A stretch of 64,000 nucleotides of DNA from positions 67,394,001 through 67,458,000 of the forward strand of contig CM052841.1 of assembly GCA_028534125.1 (NCBI GenBank), read 5' to 3'. A program made the position numbers and the translations under genes. Every line of letters starts with the position of its first letter. The first letter of the stretch is position 1. This DNA is from Lama glama. Lineage: Eukaryota. This document shows positions 1,636-64,000 of the stretch, in pieces. The notes beneath the pieces are model-generated. The model did no database searches. It was not told where the DNA came from and saw nothing but the letters and a program-made list of their open reading frames with translations.

Positions 1636-1685
1636 GTGGCAGCACCTTCTGGCCCCCAGGGCTGACCGCGGTTTCCCCTCCTCAG

Positions 1686-1836
1686 CTCAGCTCCCCCATG
1701 AACCCCGTCAGCAGCAGCGAGGACATAAAGCCCCCGCTGGGCCTCAACGGTGTCCTCAAAGTCCCGGCCCACCCCTCAGGGAACATGGCGTCCTTCACCA
1801 AGCACATCTGTGCCATCTGCGGGGACCGCTCCTCAG
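1686..1836 (+). CDS. RXRA: RXRA coding exon (human exon 3 equivalent): end of A/B domain and start of zinc finger 1
   Basis: Acceptor tttcccctcctcag|, translation [50 protein letters not shown], donor CAG|gtgagg; 151 nt. Confidence 0.97.
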
Positions 1837-2470
<634 letters not shown>

Positions 2471-27989: not shown

Positions 27990-29595
27990 GACAGGCCATG
28001 AGGAGGCTCCCCTGGCAGCTCCCAGCCCCTCCAGGGGGCTGGGACGGCTGCTCTGGGAGGCCGTTTGGCAATTTCAGACAACGCTAGACACCGTGCACCG
28101 ACCGCGCTCCTGGGCGGCACAGCCGACCTGAAAACACGCCCACCCCCGCACGCTCCTCTCTAGCAGCTTTACTCACAGCCACCAGAGCCTGGAGGCAGCC
28201 GCGGGGCCTTTCAGCAGCAGGCGGATGGACGAGCAGGCTGAGGTCCATCCAGACAGGGGAACTCTTAGCAATAACGAGAAGAGAGCCGTCAAGTCAGGAA
28301 AAGGCGGGGTGGATCATAGCGCACGTCGCTGGGGGAGACAGCCTGGGAAGGGGAGGCCACGCCTAGCACGGCCCCATTTGCATGAGGCTCCGGGCATGGC
28401 AGAACCAGAGGAAAGGCGAACAGATCGGTGGTCACCAGGGGCTGCTGTGGGGGAAGTGAGGAGGCGAGACACAGGGTTTAAAAATCCTGGGCAGCGAAAT
28501 GATTCTGTACGAGGCTGCTGGTGGATACGCCGCATGCTCGTCAGAACCCACAGGACTTTCACGGCACAAACAGTGAACCGTGTTTATGCAAATAAAACAA
28601 TTGCTCAGCGGGTGGGGAGAATCCCAGGGTGGACCACAGGCTGTGAGAGAACCATCCTCCTGAGCCAGCCTCACGGAAGGGGTGGCAGCTTTGAAATGAG
28701 TGGGGTTTGTAAAACTGGACGCGAGAGGCTGCCCTCTAGTGACCACGCAGCAGGTGGGAGCCAGCGTGTCGGCGTGGGAGGGGCAGGTAGGCAGGGTGGT
28801 GAAGGATCAGGGCTCACGACCTTGTGCACTATGCCTTCGTGCGGTCAGCTGCGTACAGACGGCTGCATGGAGAAACATCTAGAATTATGTGTAACGCAGC
28901 CCAGGTTAGGATACATGCAATTTTCTTGCTCCATCAGCTGAGAGACAGCAGAGTGACGGAGAGCACCCAGTGGCCACTGAGCACCCCCGCACCCAGGCCT
29001 TGGTTTCCAACACCATCCTCCAGTGCAAGAACCAGGATGCCTGGGGCAAGCCGCTGATTCGAGGGCAGGAAGTGGCCAGGATGAGCCTGGAGCATCTTGT
29101 TGAGCCAGGAGGTGACGGTCAAGAAGTCAAAAGCGGAACGGTGGGGTCGTCAGAGGGACAAGCAGGCGGCCGGCACGGTTCCCAGCGGCAGGGGCTGGAA
29201 AATCCAAGTGGGGACAGAGCAATTCAAGTAGAATTGGGTTACAACTCAAAGCATGATGTGAATGTCCGTGAGTCCGAACTCCTACAAATACATGCATCAC
29301 TAAGTGGAGGAGAAGGGACAAGTCGCCTGCAGAAGGGCTCCTAGTGCCCCCGCGGGGTCTTCCCGCCAAACCCACCGCCAAGTCCAGCCCCGAGAGCGGC
29401 GCCAGACAAGTCCCGGGCGAAGGACAGTCTACAGGCCCCCGAGCTGCCCCCTTACTGCCACGGCCATCGCCAAGAGGGGAGTCTGAGGGACCGTGCCCGC
29501 CCCGAGGGGCCCACGGGGGCCTGATGCCTGAAAGTCACGTGAGGTCCTGGGACAAAGGAGGACATTAGGTGAGAAACAAAGGACAGACGAAAACT
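27990..29595 (+). mobile_element. Old L1 (L1MC/L1MD-type) ORF2 end and 3' UTR, 5' part, interrupted by Tigger1
   Basis: Motifs such as tagcagctttactcacagcc, gagcacccccgcacccaggccttggtttccaacaccatcctccag, gatgagcctggagcatcttg and ggacattaggtgagaaac match recalled L1MC/MD 3' sequence. Confidence 0.7.
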
Positions 29596-31099
29596 CAGGC
29601 CGACTGCGTTTGTTGGCTCCGCTGTCCCGCCCTGAGCGGACACTGTGCTTTTCACAGATTGGAGGTCTGTTCCCACCCGGCCTCNNNNNNNNNNNNNNNN
29701 NNNNNNNNNNNNNNNNNNNNNNNNNNNNNNNNNNNNNNNNNNNNNNNNNNNNNNNNNNNNNNNNNNNNNNNNNNNNNNNNNNNNNNNNNNNNNNNNNNNN
29801 NNNNNNNNNNNNNNNNNNNNNNNNNNNNNNNNNNNNNNNNNNNNNNNNNNNNNNNNNNNNNNNNNNNNNNNNNNNNNNNNNNNNNNNNNNNNNNNNNNNN
29901 NNNNNNNNNNNNNNNNNNNNNNNNNNNNNNNNNNNNNNNNNNNNNNNNNNNNNNNNNNNNNNNNNNNNNNNNNNNNNNNNNNNNNNNNNNNNNNNNNNNN
30001 NNNNNNNNNNNNNNNNNNNNNNNNNNNNNNNNNNNNNNNNNNNNNNNNNNNNNNNNNNNNNNNNNNNNNNNNNNNNNNNNNNNNNNNNNNNNNNNNNNNN
30101 NNNNNNNNNNNNNNNNNNNNNNNNNNNNNNNNNNNNNNNNNNNNNNNNNNNNNNNNNNNNNNNNNNNNNNNNNNNNNNNNNNNNTGTGTTCTGTACGAGT
30201 CCAGCTGCCTTACATAGTGGTTCCTCTGGCGGACCTGGGGCAAGTGAACCAAAAATGTTCTGTGACGTATTCACCCTTCTCAATGCTGTTAAGAAACACT
30301 CTCAGTTCCCGGGAAGAGGCCAGCACAGCCACACTCACCGGCGTTTGGAAGACGCTGGCCCCAGCCCTCCTGGGTGGCTGAGGGGTGAAGGCTTCGCTGG
30401 AGGAAGTGGCAGCAGATGCGGTGGAAGCAGCAAGGGAGCCAGAACTGGACGTGCAGCCTGGGGATGGCGCCGCACTGCTGCAGCGTCGGGGCAACGCTCG
30501 CATGGAGGGAGCTGCCTCTCGTGGGTGAGCGAAGACAGTGGCTTCTTGAGATGGACTCCACTCCTGGTGAAGATGCTGTGAGGAATGTGGAAGTGACAAC
30601 AAAGTGTCTAGAATATTCCATAGACTTTGCTGATAAGGCCGTGACAAGTTTTCAGAGGACTGACACCGATTTTGGAAGAAGTCCTAGTGTGGGTGCACGC
30701 TGTCTGACAGCGTTGCCTGCTGCAGAGAGATCCTTAAAGGAAGAGTCAGTTGATGTGGCAAACTTCATTGGTGTCTTGTTTTACGAAATTGTCACAGCCC
30801 CTCCCCACCCCCAGCCTTCGGCCACCGCCACCCACTCAGGCAGCAGGAAAATCAGAGCCCGCTGAAGGCTCAGGTGATGGGTAGCGGTTCTCAGCCATCG
30901 AGCGTCAGAAGTGCCAGCGTGTACACTGGTCGTTTGAGACGCGACGCCGCTGCATGCGTCACAGAACGGGGGGGGGGGCAGCGTAAACACCACTTTCAGA
31001 CGCACAGGAAACCAGACAGTCCTGGGACTCGCTCTCTTGGCTCATCGCTGCACTGCGGCGGGCGGAGGCTGGACCCACAGGGTCTCTGAGGTGCGCCTT
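29596..31099 (+). mobile_element. Tigger1 (TcMar-Tigger) DNA transposon fossil, split by the assembly gap
   Basis: 5' end caggc...cttttcacagattggaggtctgt. Transposase C-terminal remnant (WLLEMDSTPGEDAVRNVEVTTKCLEYSIDFADKA, ORF 30416..30865). 3' terminus ...ctctgaggtgcgcct resembles the Tigger1 TIR. Confidence 0.88.
29685..30184. other. Assembly gap (500 N)
   Basis: Run of n characters. Confidence 1.
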
Positions 31100-60010: not shown

Positions 60011-60819
60011 CTGCCCACGTGACCCGGGGCAGGCTGAGGGCGTGTGGGCAGGTTTTCGCCTTGTTCAGACTCCTTGAGCCTCTCCACCGGCCCTTTCTGT
60101 CCGGTCTTTGATGCTTCAGTATGGTGGCTCTCAGCATCCCCCAAAACCCCGCCTCAATTCAGGAGAGTTAGTGGGATGAGCTGGAATGCCTTCCGGTGCA
60201 TCCTCGCTACATCCTGCCTGCCTGGCCCCGCCTGCCTGACCCCACCCCCGCACCCCCGCTTCTGCGGGCCTGGGCTGCTCGCCATGCAGAGACCGCAGCC
60301 TTCCCGCGCCAGGCCTGGGAGTCCCGGCTTCCGTTGTCCCTGGCTGCTGTGGTGGTCCATCGACTCTTATCCCCAGGGTGGTGGCCCCCAGAGGGCGCCC
60401 AGAACGACCCTCCTGCCCCATGACGCGGCTGCACCCCCAGCCCCTCGTGGGGAGGGTGGGGAGGGAGGATGGGGCACCCCTTTCTTTGCTTTTGGCTCAG
60501 CTACCCTGAGGGAACCGAGAGCAGGAGGTTCGCAGAGACCCTTGTGAACCTCCCTGGAGGAAGGGTATCATCCCTGGGGACTGGGCCTCTCGTGCTACAG
60601 ACTGAAGCTGTGAGGATGGAAGCCGGATTCCCAGGGCTGGGCTCGGGGTGGGCGTGGGAGGGCCGCTGCGGTGGGAAGGGCTGTGCCGCGCGCGCCTTGG
60701 CTCCCAGGTCCGTGCCTTCTACTTTCTGGGCTCAAAGCGCTCACTGAACAGTGGCCGCCGGTTCAAAGCGTTTATGGCGCCTTGAAGCACAAGGGCTCAA
60801 AATATATACGGAACCTTTC

Positions 60820-61480
60820 CCTTTTCTCTTTAATGTATTTCTAGCGAGATGAAATTTGCATAACATACAATTATCCACCTTAAAGTGAACAGCTCAGTGG
60901 CGTCTAGCGCATTCACGATGTCGCGCGGCCAGCCCTCCAGCTAGCTCGGAAACGTGTTTATCGCCCCACGCACATGAAATAACCACGCCCGCTCCTCTGC
61001 CCCAGTTTCCCGGCAGCCGCCCGTCCGCCTGGATCTGCTCTTTGTGGCCTTCCCTCTCCCCGGGGTCGCACGATGGGTGACCGCTCCTGCCTGGCTGCTT
61101 TCCCGCGTCGGTTTCTGAGGTCCGTCCCCAGCGCGACGGGCACCAGGACGCCGCCCCCTGCAGTGGCTGAGCGCTGCTCCGCCGAGAGCACAGACCACGT
61201 CTGCTCACCGGTTCCTGCCGGTGGACTTGCGGGCTGTCTCTACCTGCTGGCTGTTACACGGAAGGACAGCGTCCTCCTCCACAGAGGCCACCGTCCAGCC
61301 GGGCCAGGAGGTAGGACGCCACGGAGCTTTCTGGGTGACGAGGTGGGAGGCAGGGCCACCGGGGCCGGGGGTGGTGGTCCCGTGCCGCTGCCTCGCCATA
61401 GCGCGGCCCCGCTGGCCCGAGGCACGTCCCGCGGGTCCCGTGCTGCGGAGCGAGGCGCCCGCGGGCCCGTGGCGCGTGCA
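60820..61480 (-). mobile_element. L1MB-type 3' end, progressively GC-converted
   Basis: gagatgaaatttgcataacatacaattatccaccttaaagtgaacagctcagtgg...ggtggacttgcgggctgtctctacctgctggctgtt follows the reverse L1MB 3' UTR layout. Confidence 0.7.
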
Positions 61481-63080
61481 GCCGGCCGAGGCCGTGTGGC
61501 CGGGGACGGTGGGCCCGCGCCTGGGTCGCGGAGCGATGCAGAAGGCAAGTGGCCCCCGGGGCGGAAGGTCTGATGGGGCCTGACAGCCCTGCCTTGTCCG
61601 AGGGAGGCCGTTCGGGGGCGTGGAGGCACGGCGCCCTCCCGGGGTCTCTGTGCCCGAAGGCTGCACGCTCGCCTCGGCGGGGGCCCTCCCACCCAGCCCG
61701 CTGCTCTGCCGCCCAGCCCGGCTCTGCACTCTGGGGCCGGCCGAGCCGCTCCGGGGGCACCCGTCCCCCCGGACCACCGCCGCCGGAGGAGGCCGCGGAG
61801 GGCGGCCGCACAGGGGCGCCCCCCGCCAGGCCGCTGGCTCTCCGGCCGCCCGCCCTGCCCCGAGGCGTCGCGCGCCCCGACCTCCTGCCTGGCCCCGCAC
61901 GGGAGTCTGACGGCAGGGGTCCTACCTGAAGGCCGTCTTCCGGGGCCGCCCCGAGTGAGGGCGGGCCACCGGGCCCAGGGGCTGGGTCGGGGAAGGCTCG
62001 CGTCGGGAAGCCACGGACTGCGCGCAGCCCGCGTGGAGGGCCGAGGGGTGGGGACCAGCCTAACCTCTCCCGCGGTTTGTCAGGGGCCGCAGGGTGCAAA
62101 TCCGCAACTGTTTTTTATTGTTTGGTAATGCTTTAAAACCTCTGCAGTAGCCCACGCGGCAGCGAGCAGAAACGTGCAGACCGGGCCTCGCAAAGCCTCG
62201 AAGAGAAGGGAGCGGCCATCGAGCGTAAGGCCGGCGGGGCTGCGCGGCAATGGCGGCAGGGCGAGAGCGGGTGGGCGTGGCCAGCGGGCCCGGCCCGCTT
62301 CGGGGCGGGGCTGTGGGCGTGGCCATCCGGCCCGCCCGCTTCTGGGGGCGGGAGACAGCGGCACCCGCGTGGCCGCAAGGGCTGCGCTGACACCCACGCG
62401 GTGGAGCCCGTGATTTTACTCGGAGTGAGCGTCTGTTCTTGGAAAGTCGCTTTCTTCGTCCCCGGTCCCGGTTGCGCGTGTCACCAGCGCACTGTCCCGC
62501 CCCTGGGGGCACCTGTTTAGATCTGCATCATCAGTTGCTTCGAGCAGGAAACCAGTTAAATTCATTCCCAAACCATTTTTATTTATTTTTTTAACCCAGT
62601 GGATGGAACAGAGGGGAACACCTGGAAGTTCATTGGAACAAACGAGAAACATCTGGTGTGCTGTCAACAGGGCTGCACGTGCAGGGAAAACCAAACGAGC
62701 CCCTCAACACTGAAGTTTGTTTGTTCTGAAGGTGACAAGAGGCTGAATTTTGGAGGATCGTAGCTCCGTGATTAAAAAAATACAGCATTTTGCCGAAATC
62801 GAGGAACTCATTCTTTATTACTGGGAACGGGCTGCGACGTGCGCAGGACCCCTAACCGCACTGAAGCCACGCCGTGTGCAGCCGATGGAAACGGACGGCG
62901 CAGGCACCCGAATGCCCGAGCGCCCGCGTGTGCGCAGGGGCGGCGCACGCACGGCGCGCCGGGGAGGGGCCGCGCGACGAAGGGGCGAGCCGGTCCGCGC
63001 TGCGGCGCGCGCTCTCTCCGCCTGCCGCCTGCCGCCTGCCGCCTGCCGCCTACCGCCTGCGGCCGGGCTTCAGGCGTGTT
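61300..63080. other. Orphan CpG-island-like region (patchy: 61300-62050, 62150-62420, 62830-63080)
   Basis: Dense CpG; GC box GGGGCGGGGC at 62302-62311; no associated exon or ORF. Confidence 0.75.
63018..63059. repeat. 7-bp tandem repeat (ccgcctg) x6
   Basis: ccgcctg x4, ccgccta, ccgcctg seen directly. Confidence 0.95.
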
Positions 63081-63733
63081 TGCGCCATCGAAGTATCACC
63101 CGGGAGTCTCCTGCGTTCTATTTGAATTCATTTGGACGGCTTTCAGTGATCGATGTGACAAACGGAGCCAAAGCCCCCGAGCTTTCGAATCTTCTAAGAA
63201 TCGTCATGATTGAAAACAAAGTCCCCACGTGGAGGGCACTGCCGTTTATCCCCGTGGAAGCCAAAGGGGAGACAGACAGACTTCGCTCCAGGCCTCAGAC
63301 AGTGCACGAGATCTAATTTCAAGTCGTGTAATTGTGCTTTGGAAAAATCGTACTTGTGGGAGGAACGTTTTGATGGTGCTTGTAGGTTTAATTGGGTAAA
63401 TTTATATGCTGAAGCTAAACGGAACAAAATTGAGACGGCCATTCGAAAGAGTCAAATGTAGCAACAACCCATTTGAACTTTGTGTTACAAACGTATCTGT
63501 GGGAGAAAGGCACCCCGAACAGAGGTGCAAACGCAGCACCTGAGAGAACACTTGGGCTGAAATATGGTCACATTTAAGTACAACAAAAGACAACAAATAA
63601 ACAACAAAAAACACCAAACAAATAAACCCAAGGTTGTGAATTTCCTTCACCCAGCAGAAATCGCCTTAAACGTACGTGCTGTCTCAGCCTTTATGAAGAA
63701 TATATTTTCTCAAATAAAAATACCCTGGTCTGA

Positions 63734-63889
63734 GGGGGAAGGCAGAGCTCAGTGGTAGAGCGCATGCCTCGCACGCACAAGGTCCTGGGTTCAATCCCCA
63801 GCTCCTCCACTAAAGTAAATAAACAAATGAAAACCCAATTATCCTCCCCCCACCCAAAAAGAATTAAAAATAAACTGAAAATTGAAAAC
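63734..63889 (+). mobile_element. tRNA-derived SINE (camelid Vic-1-like) inserted in Blackjack
   Basis: Pol III A box agagctcagtgg (63744-63755), B box ggttcaatcc (63788-63797), then aaataaac...aattatcctccccc and an A-rich tail. Degenerate TSD aaaataccctggtct (63717-63731) / aaattaccatgattt (63890-63904). Confidence 0.85.
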
Positions 63890-64000
63890 AAATTACCATG
63901 ATTTACAGAGAAAGGTCTAGTCAGGGCCTCAAGAAATTCAAATTAATTCACATAAATTCGAATGATTTACCAGCAGTTTCATGGAAACCAGGAAAAAAAT

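What the first reader, a model, noticed from the sequence alone, without database searches (positions are those of the whole stretch)
60820..63200. A CpG island apparently built de novo out of AT-rich fossil transposons
Seen: a reverse L1MB-type 3' end starts AT-rich at 60820 and becomes progressively GC/CpG-rich while still traceable to ~61450. The adjacent Blackjack-like hAT fossil alternates between near-consensus AT-rich stretches (62100-62145, 62520-62820, 63180-64000) and CpG-dense patches (62150-62420, 62830-63080). These patches include a perfect Sp1 box (62302-62311) and a (ccgcctg)6 repeat. No gene is attached. Known: these repeat families are AT-rich, gBGC acts in short tracts at recombination hotspots, and CpG-dense DNA can recruit CXXC proteins and become unmethylated and promoter-like. 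Inference: a snapshot of recombination-driven birth of an orphan CpG island, possibly self-reinforcing. This is the most unusual signal in the window.
Basis: partly seen in the sequence, partly recalled or inferred. Interest (0 to 1): 0.72.

Follow-up and report, generated by a model that had tools for sequence, protein, structure and literature searches.

The report
Transposon fossils rewritten into CpG island
A 3-kb CpG island with no gene on it lies mostly on two dead, AT-rich transposons whose A/T bases were replaced by G/C far more often than the reverse, likely through recombination-linked gene conversion, and since neighbouring fossils show the same shift it is a clear local example of a known process.

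Summary
Real, but a known process. 60451-63450 is a strong CpG island (279 CpG, o/e 0.90; highest o/e in 384 kb). Against consensuses built from other copies in this genome, an L1 3' end (60825-61258) and a DNA-transposon fossil (62077-64159) stay collinear through the GC patches. [quoted passage not shown] None of 11 inferred ancestral CpGs survives, so these CpGs are new. Three corrections: the L1 is traceable only to ~61260, not 61450; the densest 818 bp (61259-62076, 101 CpG) matches neither fossil and may be an older island; and the bias is regional (7 of 18 neighbouring L1 fragments have W>S of 0.30 or more, 1.5 Mb from the contig end). A 4-8% diverged relative has the same patches, so this is no fresh birth. 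Low germline methylation is suggested (CpG-forming changes fully kept) but not shown; self-reinforcement is untested. gBGC-made non-genic islands are described in dog and primates, and this scan noted similar cases on other DNA (e1-9350526, e1-7801886).

The parts
60451..63450 (.). CpG island by sequence criteria (GC 0.64, 279 CpG, o/e 0.90)
60825..61258 (-). L1 3' end fossil (consensus positions 10-478), T-rich tail at the left, W>S rising from 0.19 in the first 100 bp to 0.4-0.6; 37 CpG, o/e 0.95
61259..62076 (.). Untraceable core: GC 0.78, 101 CpG, o/e 0.81; no match to the L1, the DNA transposon, its 5' arm, or elsewhere in the genome
62077..64000 (+). DNA-transposon fossil (hAT/BLACKJACK-like by recall), consensus 44-2175, running on to 64159 beyond the window; consensus GC 0.285 with 1 CpG in 2384 bp
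62150..62515 (+). GC patch 1 (GC 0.72, 46 CpG), collinear with consensus about 130-560; symmetric W>S 24/55 in 62401-62482
62271..62352 (+). 42-bp tandem duplication (1.9 copies, 87%) holding the GC box 62302-62311 and a degenerate second box
62516..62814 (+). AT-richer stretch of the same fossil (W>S 40/166, 8 CpG, o/e 0.60)
62815..63110 (+). GC patch 2 (GC 0.74, 48 CpG, o/e 1.18), collinear with consensus about 865-1160; symmetric W>S 26/48 in 62819-62904
63018..63064 (+). (CCGCCTG) x6.7 microsatellite lying on the consensus stretch near 1090-1105; slippage after GC conversion is inferred
63111..63732 (+). AT-richer stretch with moderate W>S (0.24) but full retention of CpG-forming changes (21/89 vs 49/283)
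63734..63830 (+). tRNA-derived SINE inserted in the fossil; W>S 7/34, S>W 1/42 against a consensus of 36 other copies

Best explanation
Two old AT-rich transposon copies here had A/T replaced by G/C several times more often than the reverse, which made most of this island's CpGs, likely because GC-biased gene conversion (gBGC) has acted for a long time at a local peak of a region-wide bias near a likely chromosome end, and the island is probably under-methylated in the germline. Steps: (1) shown: L1 and DNA-transposon copies inserted with AT-rich sequence; (2) inferred: they were methylated at first and lost their original CpGs; (3) shown as a substitution pattern, inferred as a mechanism: recombination-linked mismatch repair favouring G/C fixed W>S changes and held back S>W changes, unevenly over 100-300 bp; (4) shown: this went on after the SINE inserted, and the patches predate the split from a 4-8% diverged relative; (5) inferred, weaker: CpG loss slowed inside the island, as expected if it became unmethylated and so attracts PRDM9-independent recombination. 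No function is needed to explain it.
For: L1: W>S 95/232, S>W 9/128, W<>W 8/232, S<>S 6/128; W>S transversions 24 vs S>W transversions 0 (symmetric scoring). At sites not next to a consensus C/G: 62/145 vs 6/87 (p=9e-10); 72 other hits pooled 1173/9044 vs 816/5241. A>G 27/88 and T>C 44/144 are equal. DNA transposon, alignable pieces: 226/855 vs 35/255; 52 other loci median 0.11 vs 0.25, maximum 0.22. Ancestral CpGs kept 0 of 11 while 17 of 81 plain TpG/CpA became CpG. Regional: 18 other L1 fragments in 384 kb have W>S 0.15-0.43; 9 regional SINEs 59/297 vs 24/360, 27 distant ones 91/914 vs 104/1096. Window lies 1.47 Mb from the end of a 68.9-Mb contig; GC* rises towards telomeres in human (PMC2346554, passages). 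13 of 20 listed differences to run X16 could be polarised: 10 W>S, 1 S>W, 2 W>W. CpG-forming transitions are kept at 1.36 times the rate of others in 63112-63732, against 0.63 in the two most shifted other copies (p=0.008), 0.26 in the same fossil's tail and about 0.65 in a methylated simulation at that W>S level.
Against: No outgroup DNA, recombination map or methylome was available. The core with 101 CpG has no traceable ancestor. Methylated sequence under strong late gBGC also reproduces the L1's numbers in simulation (W>S 0.37-0.48, ratio 0.92), so the L1 says nothing on methylation. 4 of 7 variants among close relatives inside the island are CpG transitions, against 3 of 14 in the flank, which does not look like protection (small counts, uneven cover). 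The island's o/e is 0.60 in 62516-62814. Tail versus interior is only p=0.09. S<>S is slightly raised (0.047-0.07). Polarising with an AT-rich consensus favours W>S calls, and 4 of the 13 sites lie in a piece not alignable on its own. Ancestral CpGs were inferred by a heuristic.
Confidence: 0.65

Rival explanations
1. Island first: the core 61259-62076 is an older unmethylated island or regulatory element; it attracted PRDM9-independent recombination, and gBGC spread into the transposons on both sides. Same force, reverse order, so the island grew rather than being born from fossils.
For: The core is the most GC- and CpG-dense part and matches no repeat. W>S in the L1 rises towards it (0.19, 0.40, 0.50, 0.59 per 100 bp) and falls to 0.17 in the far tail of the DNA transposon. 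In dog, lack of methylation is inferred to attract recombination (PMC4350167, abstract and passages).
Against: 0 of 11 inferred ancestral CpGs beside the core survive, so the neighbourhood was not protected at first. Patch 2 is separated from the core by 300 bp of weaker shift. A fossil converted at 60-80% of its A/T would be unrecognisable anyway, as 62920-63020 is.
Confidence: 0.3
2. A methylated, inert 'BGC island': strong episodic hotspots alone keep CpGs by blocking fixation of CpG>TpG; no unmethylated state, no feedback and no regulatory role.
For: Simulation with tenfold CpG mutation and late B of 6-10 gives o/e 0.76-0.94. Neighbouring L1s reach o/e 0.78-0.88. 4 of 7 variants are CpG transitions. 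BGC islands are a described class enriched among islands that are not constitutively unmethylated (PMC4121359, passages).
Against: In 63112-63732 W>S is only 0.24 yet CpG-forming changes are fully kept (21/89 against about 10 expected, p=0.0007). A 3-kb span at o/e 0.9 stands well above the next best (0.75) in 384 kb.
Confidence: 0.3
3. Selection built a promoter or enhancer (for RXRA, COL5A1 or a non-coding RNA) out of the fossils.
For: A duplicated GC box. RNA-run contigs of a relative cover 62022-63010 without a gap but only scattered pieces to the left; 6 RNA runs from 3 studies hold a small share of the stretch. Orphan-island gain is tied to enhancer gain in mammals (PMC11170920, passages).
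Against: Changes are faster, not slower: the relative differs at 22/260, 8/105, 33/491 and 8/203 sites there. The bias hits all A/T sites and neighbouring fossils alike. Eight perfect GC boxes occur in the window. Contigs give no start, strand or level, DNA can be in the library, and only 1 RNA run was laid.
Confidence: 0.07
4. The GC patches are separate insertions, CpGs inherited from the element, or one-strand editing (ADAR-type) or a mutation bias.
For: Sub-pieces 62150-62270 and 62920-63020 do not align on their own. A local mutation bias towards G/C cannot be excluded without allele frequencies.
Against: Patch lengths match the consensus gaps (356 vs 460 bp, 304 vs 345 bp) and the patches align. 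The consensus has 1 CpG and none of 11 inferred ancestral CpGs is kept. A>G equals T>C and transversions share the bias.
Confidence: 0.03

Closest known systems
gBGC-generated, mostly non-genic CpG islands and GC-peaks of dog (Berglund et al. 2014, PMC4350167; abstract and passages read)
   Same: New CpG island away from genes, attributed to W>S-biased fixation; link to low methylation.
   Different: Dog lacks PRDM9 and dog-specific islands average about 300 bp; here the island is 3 kb, the ancestral state is read from transposon consensuses, and PRDM9 status was not examined.
'BGC' class of CpG islands (Cohen et al. 2011, as described in PMC4121359; passages read, the original not seen)
   Same: CpG richness from biased gene conversion rather than only from slow deamination.
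   Different: That class was defined on primate alignments of non-repetitive islands; here part of the island also shows signs of slowed CpG loss.
Orphan CpG-island turnover in nine mammals (Kocher et al. 2024, PMC11170920; passages read, supplementary Fig. S47 not seen)
   Same: [quoted passage not shown]
   Different: There transposons are discussed as carriers of CpG-rich sequence; here the carriers were CpG-poor and were rewritten. No chromatin data here.
PRDM9-independent hotspots at hypomethylated DNA in placental mammals (Joseph et al. 2024, PMC11161765; passages and first part of the Discussion read)
   Same: Long-lived gBGC at a CpG-rich, possibly hypomethylated site.
   Different: Hypomethylation and breaks are not measured here; the main text has no mention of camel, alpaca or Vicugna, and the authors say the method is not suited to single loci.
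BLACKJACK (autonomous hAT) and L1MB subfamilies of Repbase (listed in PMC5753468; passages read)
   Same: About 2.9-kb element with terminal inverted repeats and transposase-like frames; L1M-type 3' end.
   Different: Names rest on recall; no Dfam or Repbase consensus was available and Pfam found no hAT domain in the decayed pieces.

Membership tests
CpG island (sequence definition) | At least 500 bp, GC at least 0.55, CpG o/e at least 0.65 | tested here: met
   3000 bp, GC 0.64, o/e 0.90; 43 stretches in 184 kb pass these thresholds, so only the rank is informative
CpG island (functional) | Unmethylated in germline or soma | tested here: inconclusive
   Context ratio 1.36-1.41 favours low CpG loss; 4 of 7 variants are CpG transitions; no methylome
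gBGC tract / BGC island | W>S far above S>W at non-CpG sites | tested here: met
   62/145 vs 6/87 (L1), 32/77 vs 4/38 (patches)
gBGC tract / BGC island | Bias in transversions as well, and strand-symmetric | tested here: met
   24 vs 0, 68/855 vs 6/255; A>G 27/88, T>C 44/144
gBGC tract / BGC island | W<>W and S<>S rates not raised | tested here: met
   W<>W 0.03-0.046 as in other copies; S<>S 0.047-0.07, slightly above the usual 0.02-0.04
gBGC tract / BGC island | W>S alleles at higher derived frequency; high recombination | not testable with these tools
   Only contigs of 3 DNA runs were laid; no map
PRDM9-independent hotspot | Bias persists across lineages at the same site | tested here: inconclusive
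   6 W>S on this lineage, 4 on the relative's, 1 S>W among 13 polarised sites; the region as a whole is biased too
PRDM9-independent hotspot | Meiotic breaks at hypomethylated DNA without PRDM9 marks | not testable with these tools
   No DMC1, H3K4me3 or H3K36me3 data
L1M 3' end (L1MB) | Homology to a high-copy interspersed repeat ending in an A-rich tail | tested here: met
   28 other genome matches; profile match E=7.5e-34 with T-rich left end
L1M 3' end (L1MB) | Subfamily-diagnostic match to the Dfam/Repbase consensus | not testable with these tools
   No library held; the name is recalled and the 72 hits probably mix subfamilies
hAT / BLACKJACK | Terminal inverted repeats | tested here: met
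   Sister copies start with TAGGGTGACC-like and end with GGTCACCCTA-like ends; neither end is recognisable in this copy
hAT / BLACKJACK | Transposase with hAT domains | tested here: inconclusive
   The consensus reads as long protein-like frames resembling a hAT transposase by recall; Pfam gave no hAT family for 10 window frames and 16 sister-copy frames; no intact homologue found
hAT / BLACKJACK | 8-bp target-site duplication | tested here: inconclusive
   No copy gave two clean ends

The most novel reading that the evidence does not exclude
A 3-kb island as CpG-dense as the neighbouring RXRA promoter was made wholly from methylated, AT-rich transposon debris (core included), crossed a threshold to an unmethylated state, and has since kept itself as a long-lived PRDM9-independent recombination hotspot that is now transcribed: a dated, fossil-calibrated record of the gBGC-to-hypomethylation feedback at one neutral locus.
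Probability: 0.2. Interest if true: 0.6.

Novelty: new member of a known kind. Interest (0 to 1): 0.33.

Why it matters
Papers read here infer genome-wide that gBGC makes new non-genic CpG islands and that unmethylated islands attract recombination, but the order of events at one site is hard to see. Here the starting sequence is known (a consensus with 1 CpG in 2384 bp against 128 in the copy), and three insertions of different age give time points. If methylome and outgroup data showed that the island became unmethylated only after the GC gain, it would be a clean test of the feedback. As it stands it is a good teaching example, and a warning that heavily GC-shifted repeats near chromosome ends drop below repeat detection and can pass as unique CpG islands.

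Tried and rejected
Extending the L1 beyond 61260: an iterated W>S-aware alignment ran on to 61748 but scored no better than shuffles, so rejected. Assigning the core to the transposon's 5' arm: best case 1-2 of 100 shuffles among 20 tests, rank 71 of 756 against real windows, so rejected. Core paralogues: none (the search skips common words). Orthologue DNA from other mammals: two metagenome scans found nothing; P0002 shares deletions and derived residues with this copy and matches it (E=4e-18) far better than the consensus (9e-7), so it is a likely orthologue, but its DNA could not be obtained. Loci L026-L031 were not copies of the element. A covariance model was built but could not be used on this genome. 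Heterogeneity of W>S along the fossil is significant (chi2 37.5, 8 df), but the bins were chosen after seeing GC content. RNA cover: 1 of 6 RNA runs was laid; uncovered parts are no evidence, and contigs cannot show start, strand or level. A bacterial promoter scan was irrelevant. Rfam gave only the SINE's tRNA head. Literature: searches turned up no paper on this locus or on an island traced base by base to AT-rich fossils; the library lacks most subscription papers and I read no supplements.
Full report
Setting. The window is G000:C26:67394001-67458000, 1.47 Mb from the end of a 68.9-Mb contig. It is GC-rich throughout: 63% GC, CpG o/e 0.48. It holds the 3' half of a nuclear-receptor gene (zf-C4, E=3e-27); short recalled peptide motifs place an RXRA-like first exon at -71.4 kb and stop near 20.1 kb, and a COL5A1-like start at +148.2 kb with collagen repeats beyond.

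The island. 60451-63450 has GC 0.64, 279 CpG and o/e 0.90. Among 3-kb windows of the 384 kb fetched around it, it ranks first by o/e (0.94; next 0.75; median 0.47) and ties in CpG count with the island at the RXRA-like first exon (284 vs 286). Forty-three stretches in 184 kb pass the usual thresholds, so the rank is what counts. The GC box at 62302-62311 is one of 8 in the window and sits in a 42-bp tandem duplication. The heptamer repeat is 6.7 copies at 92%.

The L1. No repeat library was at hand, so I built one from the genome. The AT-rich start found 28 other copies; 25 seeded a profile (L065, L072 and L077 were left out as too short), which collected 72 hits from fetched loci, none overlapping the window or its flanks, and gave a consensus of 35% GC. 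It matches 60825-61258 at E=7.5e-34. The GC-rich half alone beats 200 of 200 shuffles and 728 of 728 real GC-rich windows. With symmetric scoring the copy shows W>S 95/232, S>W 9/128, W<>W 8/232, S<>S 6/128, and 24 W>S against 0 S>W transversions. Leaving out all sites next to a consensus C or G gives 62/145 against 6/87, while the 72 other hits give 0.130 and 0.156. A>G (27/88) and T>C (44/144) are equal, which excludes one-strand editing.

The DNA transposon. Protein and DNA searches gave 53 loci, 88 hits and a 2384-bp consensus with 28.5% GC and 1 CpG, plus a 5' arm of about 550 bp. Sister copies have terminal inverted repeats. The frames and ends resemble BLACKJACK by recall, but Pfam and three protein searches gave no confirmation. 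The AT-rich stretches anchor at consensus 44-128, 589-863 and 1209-1987, and the two GC patches fill gaps of about the expected length (356 vs 460 bp; 304 vs 345 bp). Both patches align: 0 of 200 shuffles under two scorings, 0 of 668 and 0 of 680 real windows. Two sub-pieces (62150-62270, 62920-63020) do not align alone. Symmetric counts give W>S 0.44 and 0.54 in the alignable patch parts, 0.17-0.27 in the AT-richer parts, and 226/855 against S>W 35/255 overall; 52 other loci with at least 150 scored A/T sites have median 0.11 and maximum 0.22, S>W median 0.25. So the patches are rewritten transposon, not insertions, and the 'near-consensus' parts are shifted too.

New or inherited CpGs. Columns where copies mix TG and CA mark likely ancestral CpGs (a heuristic). 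This locus keeps 0 of 11 such sites, while 17 of 81 plain TpG/CpA became CpG. The fossils therefore lost their own CpGs first and gained new ones later. This supports 'de novo' for the 37 CpGs of the L1 and the 128 of the transposon up to 63732.

The gap in the story. The core 61259-62076 (GC 0.78, 101 CpG) matches neither consensus, nor the 5' arm once tested against real sequence (rank 71 of 756), nor anything else in the genome. It may be a fossil converted past recognition or an older island that drew recombination; W>S in the L1 climbs towards it. Only outgroups can decide, and none could be fetched.

Regional control. The same L1 profile finds 18 other fragments in the 384 kb. Their W>S is 0.15-0.43, 7 of 18 at 0.30 or more, one in this window (28161-28464, 56/139). 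The focal copy is above the pooled region (62/145 vs 577/1962, p=0.001) but not clearly above the high group (p=0.06, a group chosen by its value). Fragments converted further would escape this search. Three island-like stretches at 68.0, 105.9 and 120.6 kb (o/e 0.78-0.90) overlap such L1s. Regional SINEs are biased as well (59/297 vs 24/360; distant 91/914 vs 104/1096). In human, equilibrium GC rises towards telomeres (PMC2346554, passages). The finding is a local peak on a regional bias.

Timing. The SINE inside the fossil shows 7/34 W>S and 1/42 S>W, so the bias outlasted its insertion. Run X16 comes from a relative differing at 22/260, 8/105, 33/491 and 8/203 sites over 62022-63010, far less than the roughly 50% of A/T sites converted, so the patches predate that split. 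The table showed 40 rows and withheld 46; of the 20 listed X16 differences in 62066-62358, 13 could be polarised: 10 W>S (6 on this lineage, 4 on the other), 1 S>W, 2 W>W. An AT-rich consensus biases this count, and 4 sites lie in a weakly aligned piece.

Methylation proxies. A simulation with tenfold CpG mutation and no gBGC reproduces the distant copies (W>S 0.12, S>W 0.25, o/e 0.19). The L1's numbers fit either an unmethylated state or methylation with strong late gBGC. The stretch 63112-63732 is more telling: W>S is 0.24, yet CpG-forming transitions are kept at 21/89 against 49/283 elsewhere (ratio 1.36), where the methylated model gives about 0.65 (p=0.0007), the two most shifted sister copies 0.63 (p=0.008) and the fossil's own tail 0.26 (1/28; p=0.09). 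Against this, 4 of 7 variants among close relatives in the island are CpG transitions (3 of 14 in the flank), with uneven cover: X11 to 62908, X12 to 62116, X2 only to 58789. Low germline methylation is likely but not shown. RNA-run contigs cover 62022-63010; they cannot show strand, start or level, and 1 of 6 RNA runs was laid.

Comparison. Berglund et al. (PMC4350167; abstract and passages) infer that gBGC made many new, mostly non-genic islands in dog and that low methylation attracts recombination. BGC islands are a class in primates (PMC4121359, passages). [quoted passage not shown] PRDM9-independent hotspots at hypomethylated DNA are common in placentals (PMC11161765, passages and part of the Discussion). 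PMC4417305 (abstract) finds little BGC contribution to sperm-methylated human islands, which tells against the inert-island rival being the rule. Eight literature searches found no paper on this locus. This scan noted similar cases on other DNA; these are AI notes, not support.

Verdict. 'Birth from fossils' is unproven for the densest quarter of the island's length, the signal is regional and old, and feedback is untested. New member of a known kind; interest 0.33.

Noticed in passing
window 28161-28464: A second L1 3' fragment as GC-shifted as the focal one (W>S 56/139, S>W 6/86) but with CpG o/e only 0.54: a natural methylated-type control.
   Followed up: partly
L004:355-515 (just past the window end): An inverted second piece of the same DNA transposon (consensus 1778-1970), 72% like window 63905-64032 and without the SINE.
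   Followed up: partly
L004:4011-5210; L008:1901-3130; L009:6561-7460 (68.0, 105.9 and 120.6 kb in window coordinates): Three more island-like stretches (o/e 0.78-0.90) overlapping L1 fragments with W>S 0.31-0.36.
   Followed up: partly
window 63282-63999 versus P0002: A predicted protein from a public assembly shares this copy's deletions and derived residues and lacks the SINE: likely the orthologous fossil in another mammal.
   Followed up: partly
window 62806-62808: Run X16 carries a 33-nt TAA-rich insertion here.
   Followed up: no
window 62022-62361: Among the 21 listed differences to X16 here only 7 are transitions and 2 are CpG transitions, whereas the differences not listed are mostly transitions by the run's totals.
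   Followed up: partly
L104 and L036: The two most GC-shifted sister copies of the DNA transposon (W>S 0.22 and 0.18) are patchy too (bins up to 0.39 and 0.30).
   Followed up: partly
window 1685-2361 and 1601-2640: Intragenic CpG-rich stretch (o/e 0.76) over two RXRA-like exons with a short, very GC-rich intron.
   Followed up: no
window 29685-30184: A 500-base run of N; the many long ORFs listed there are artefacts of it.
   Followed up: no
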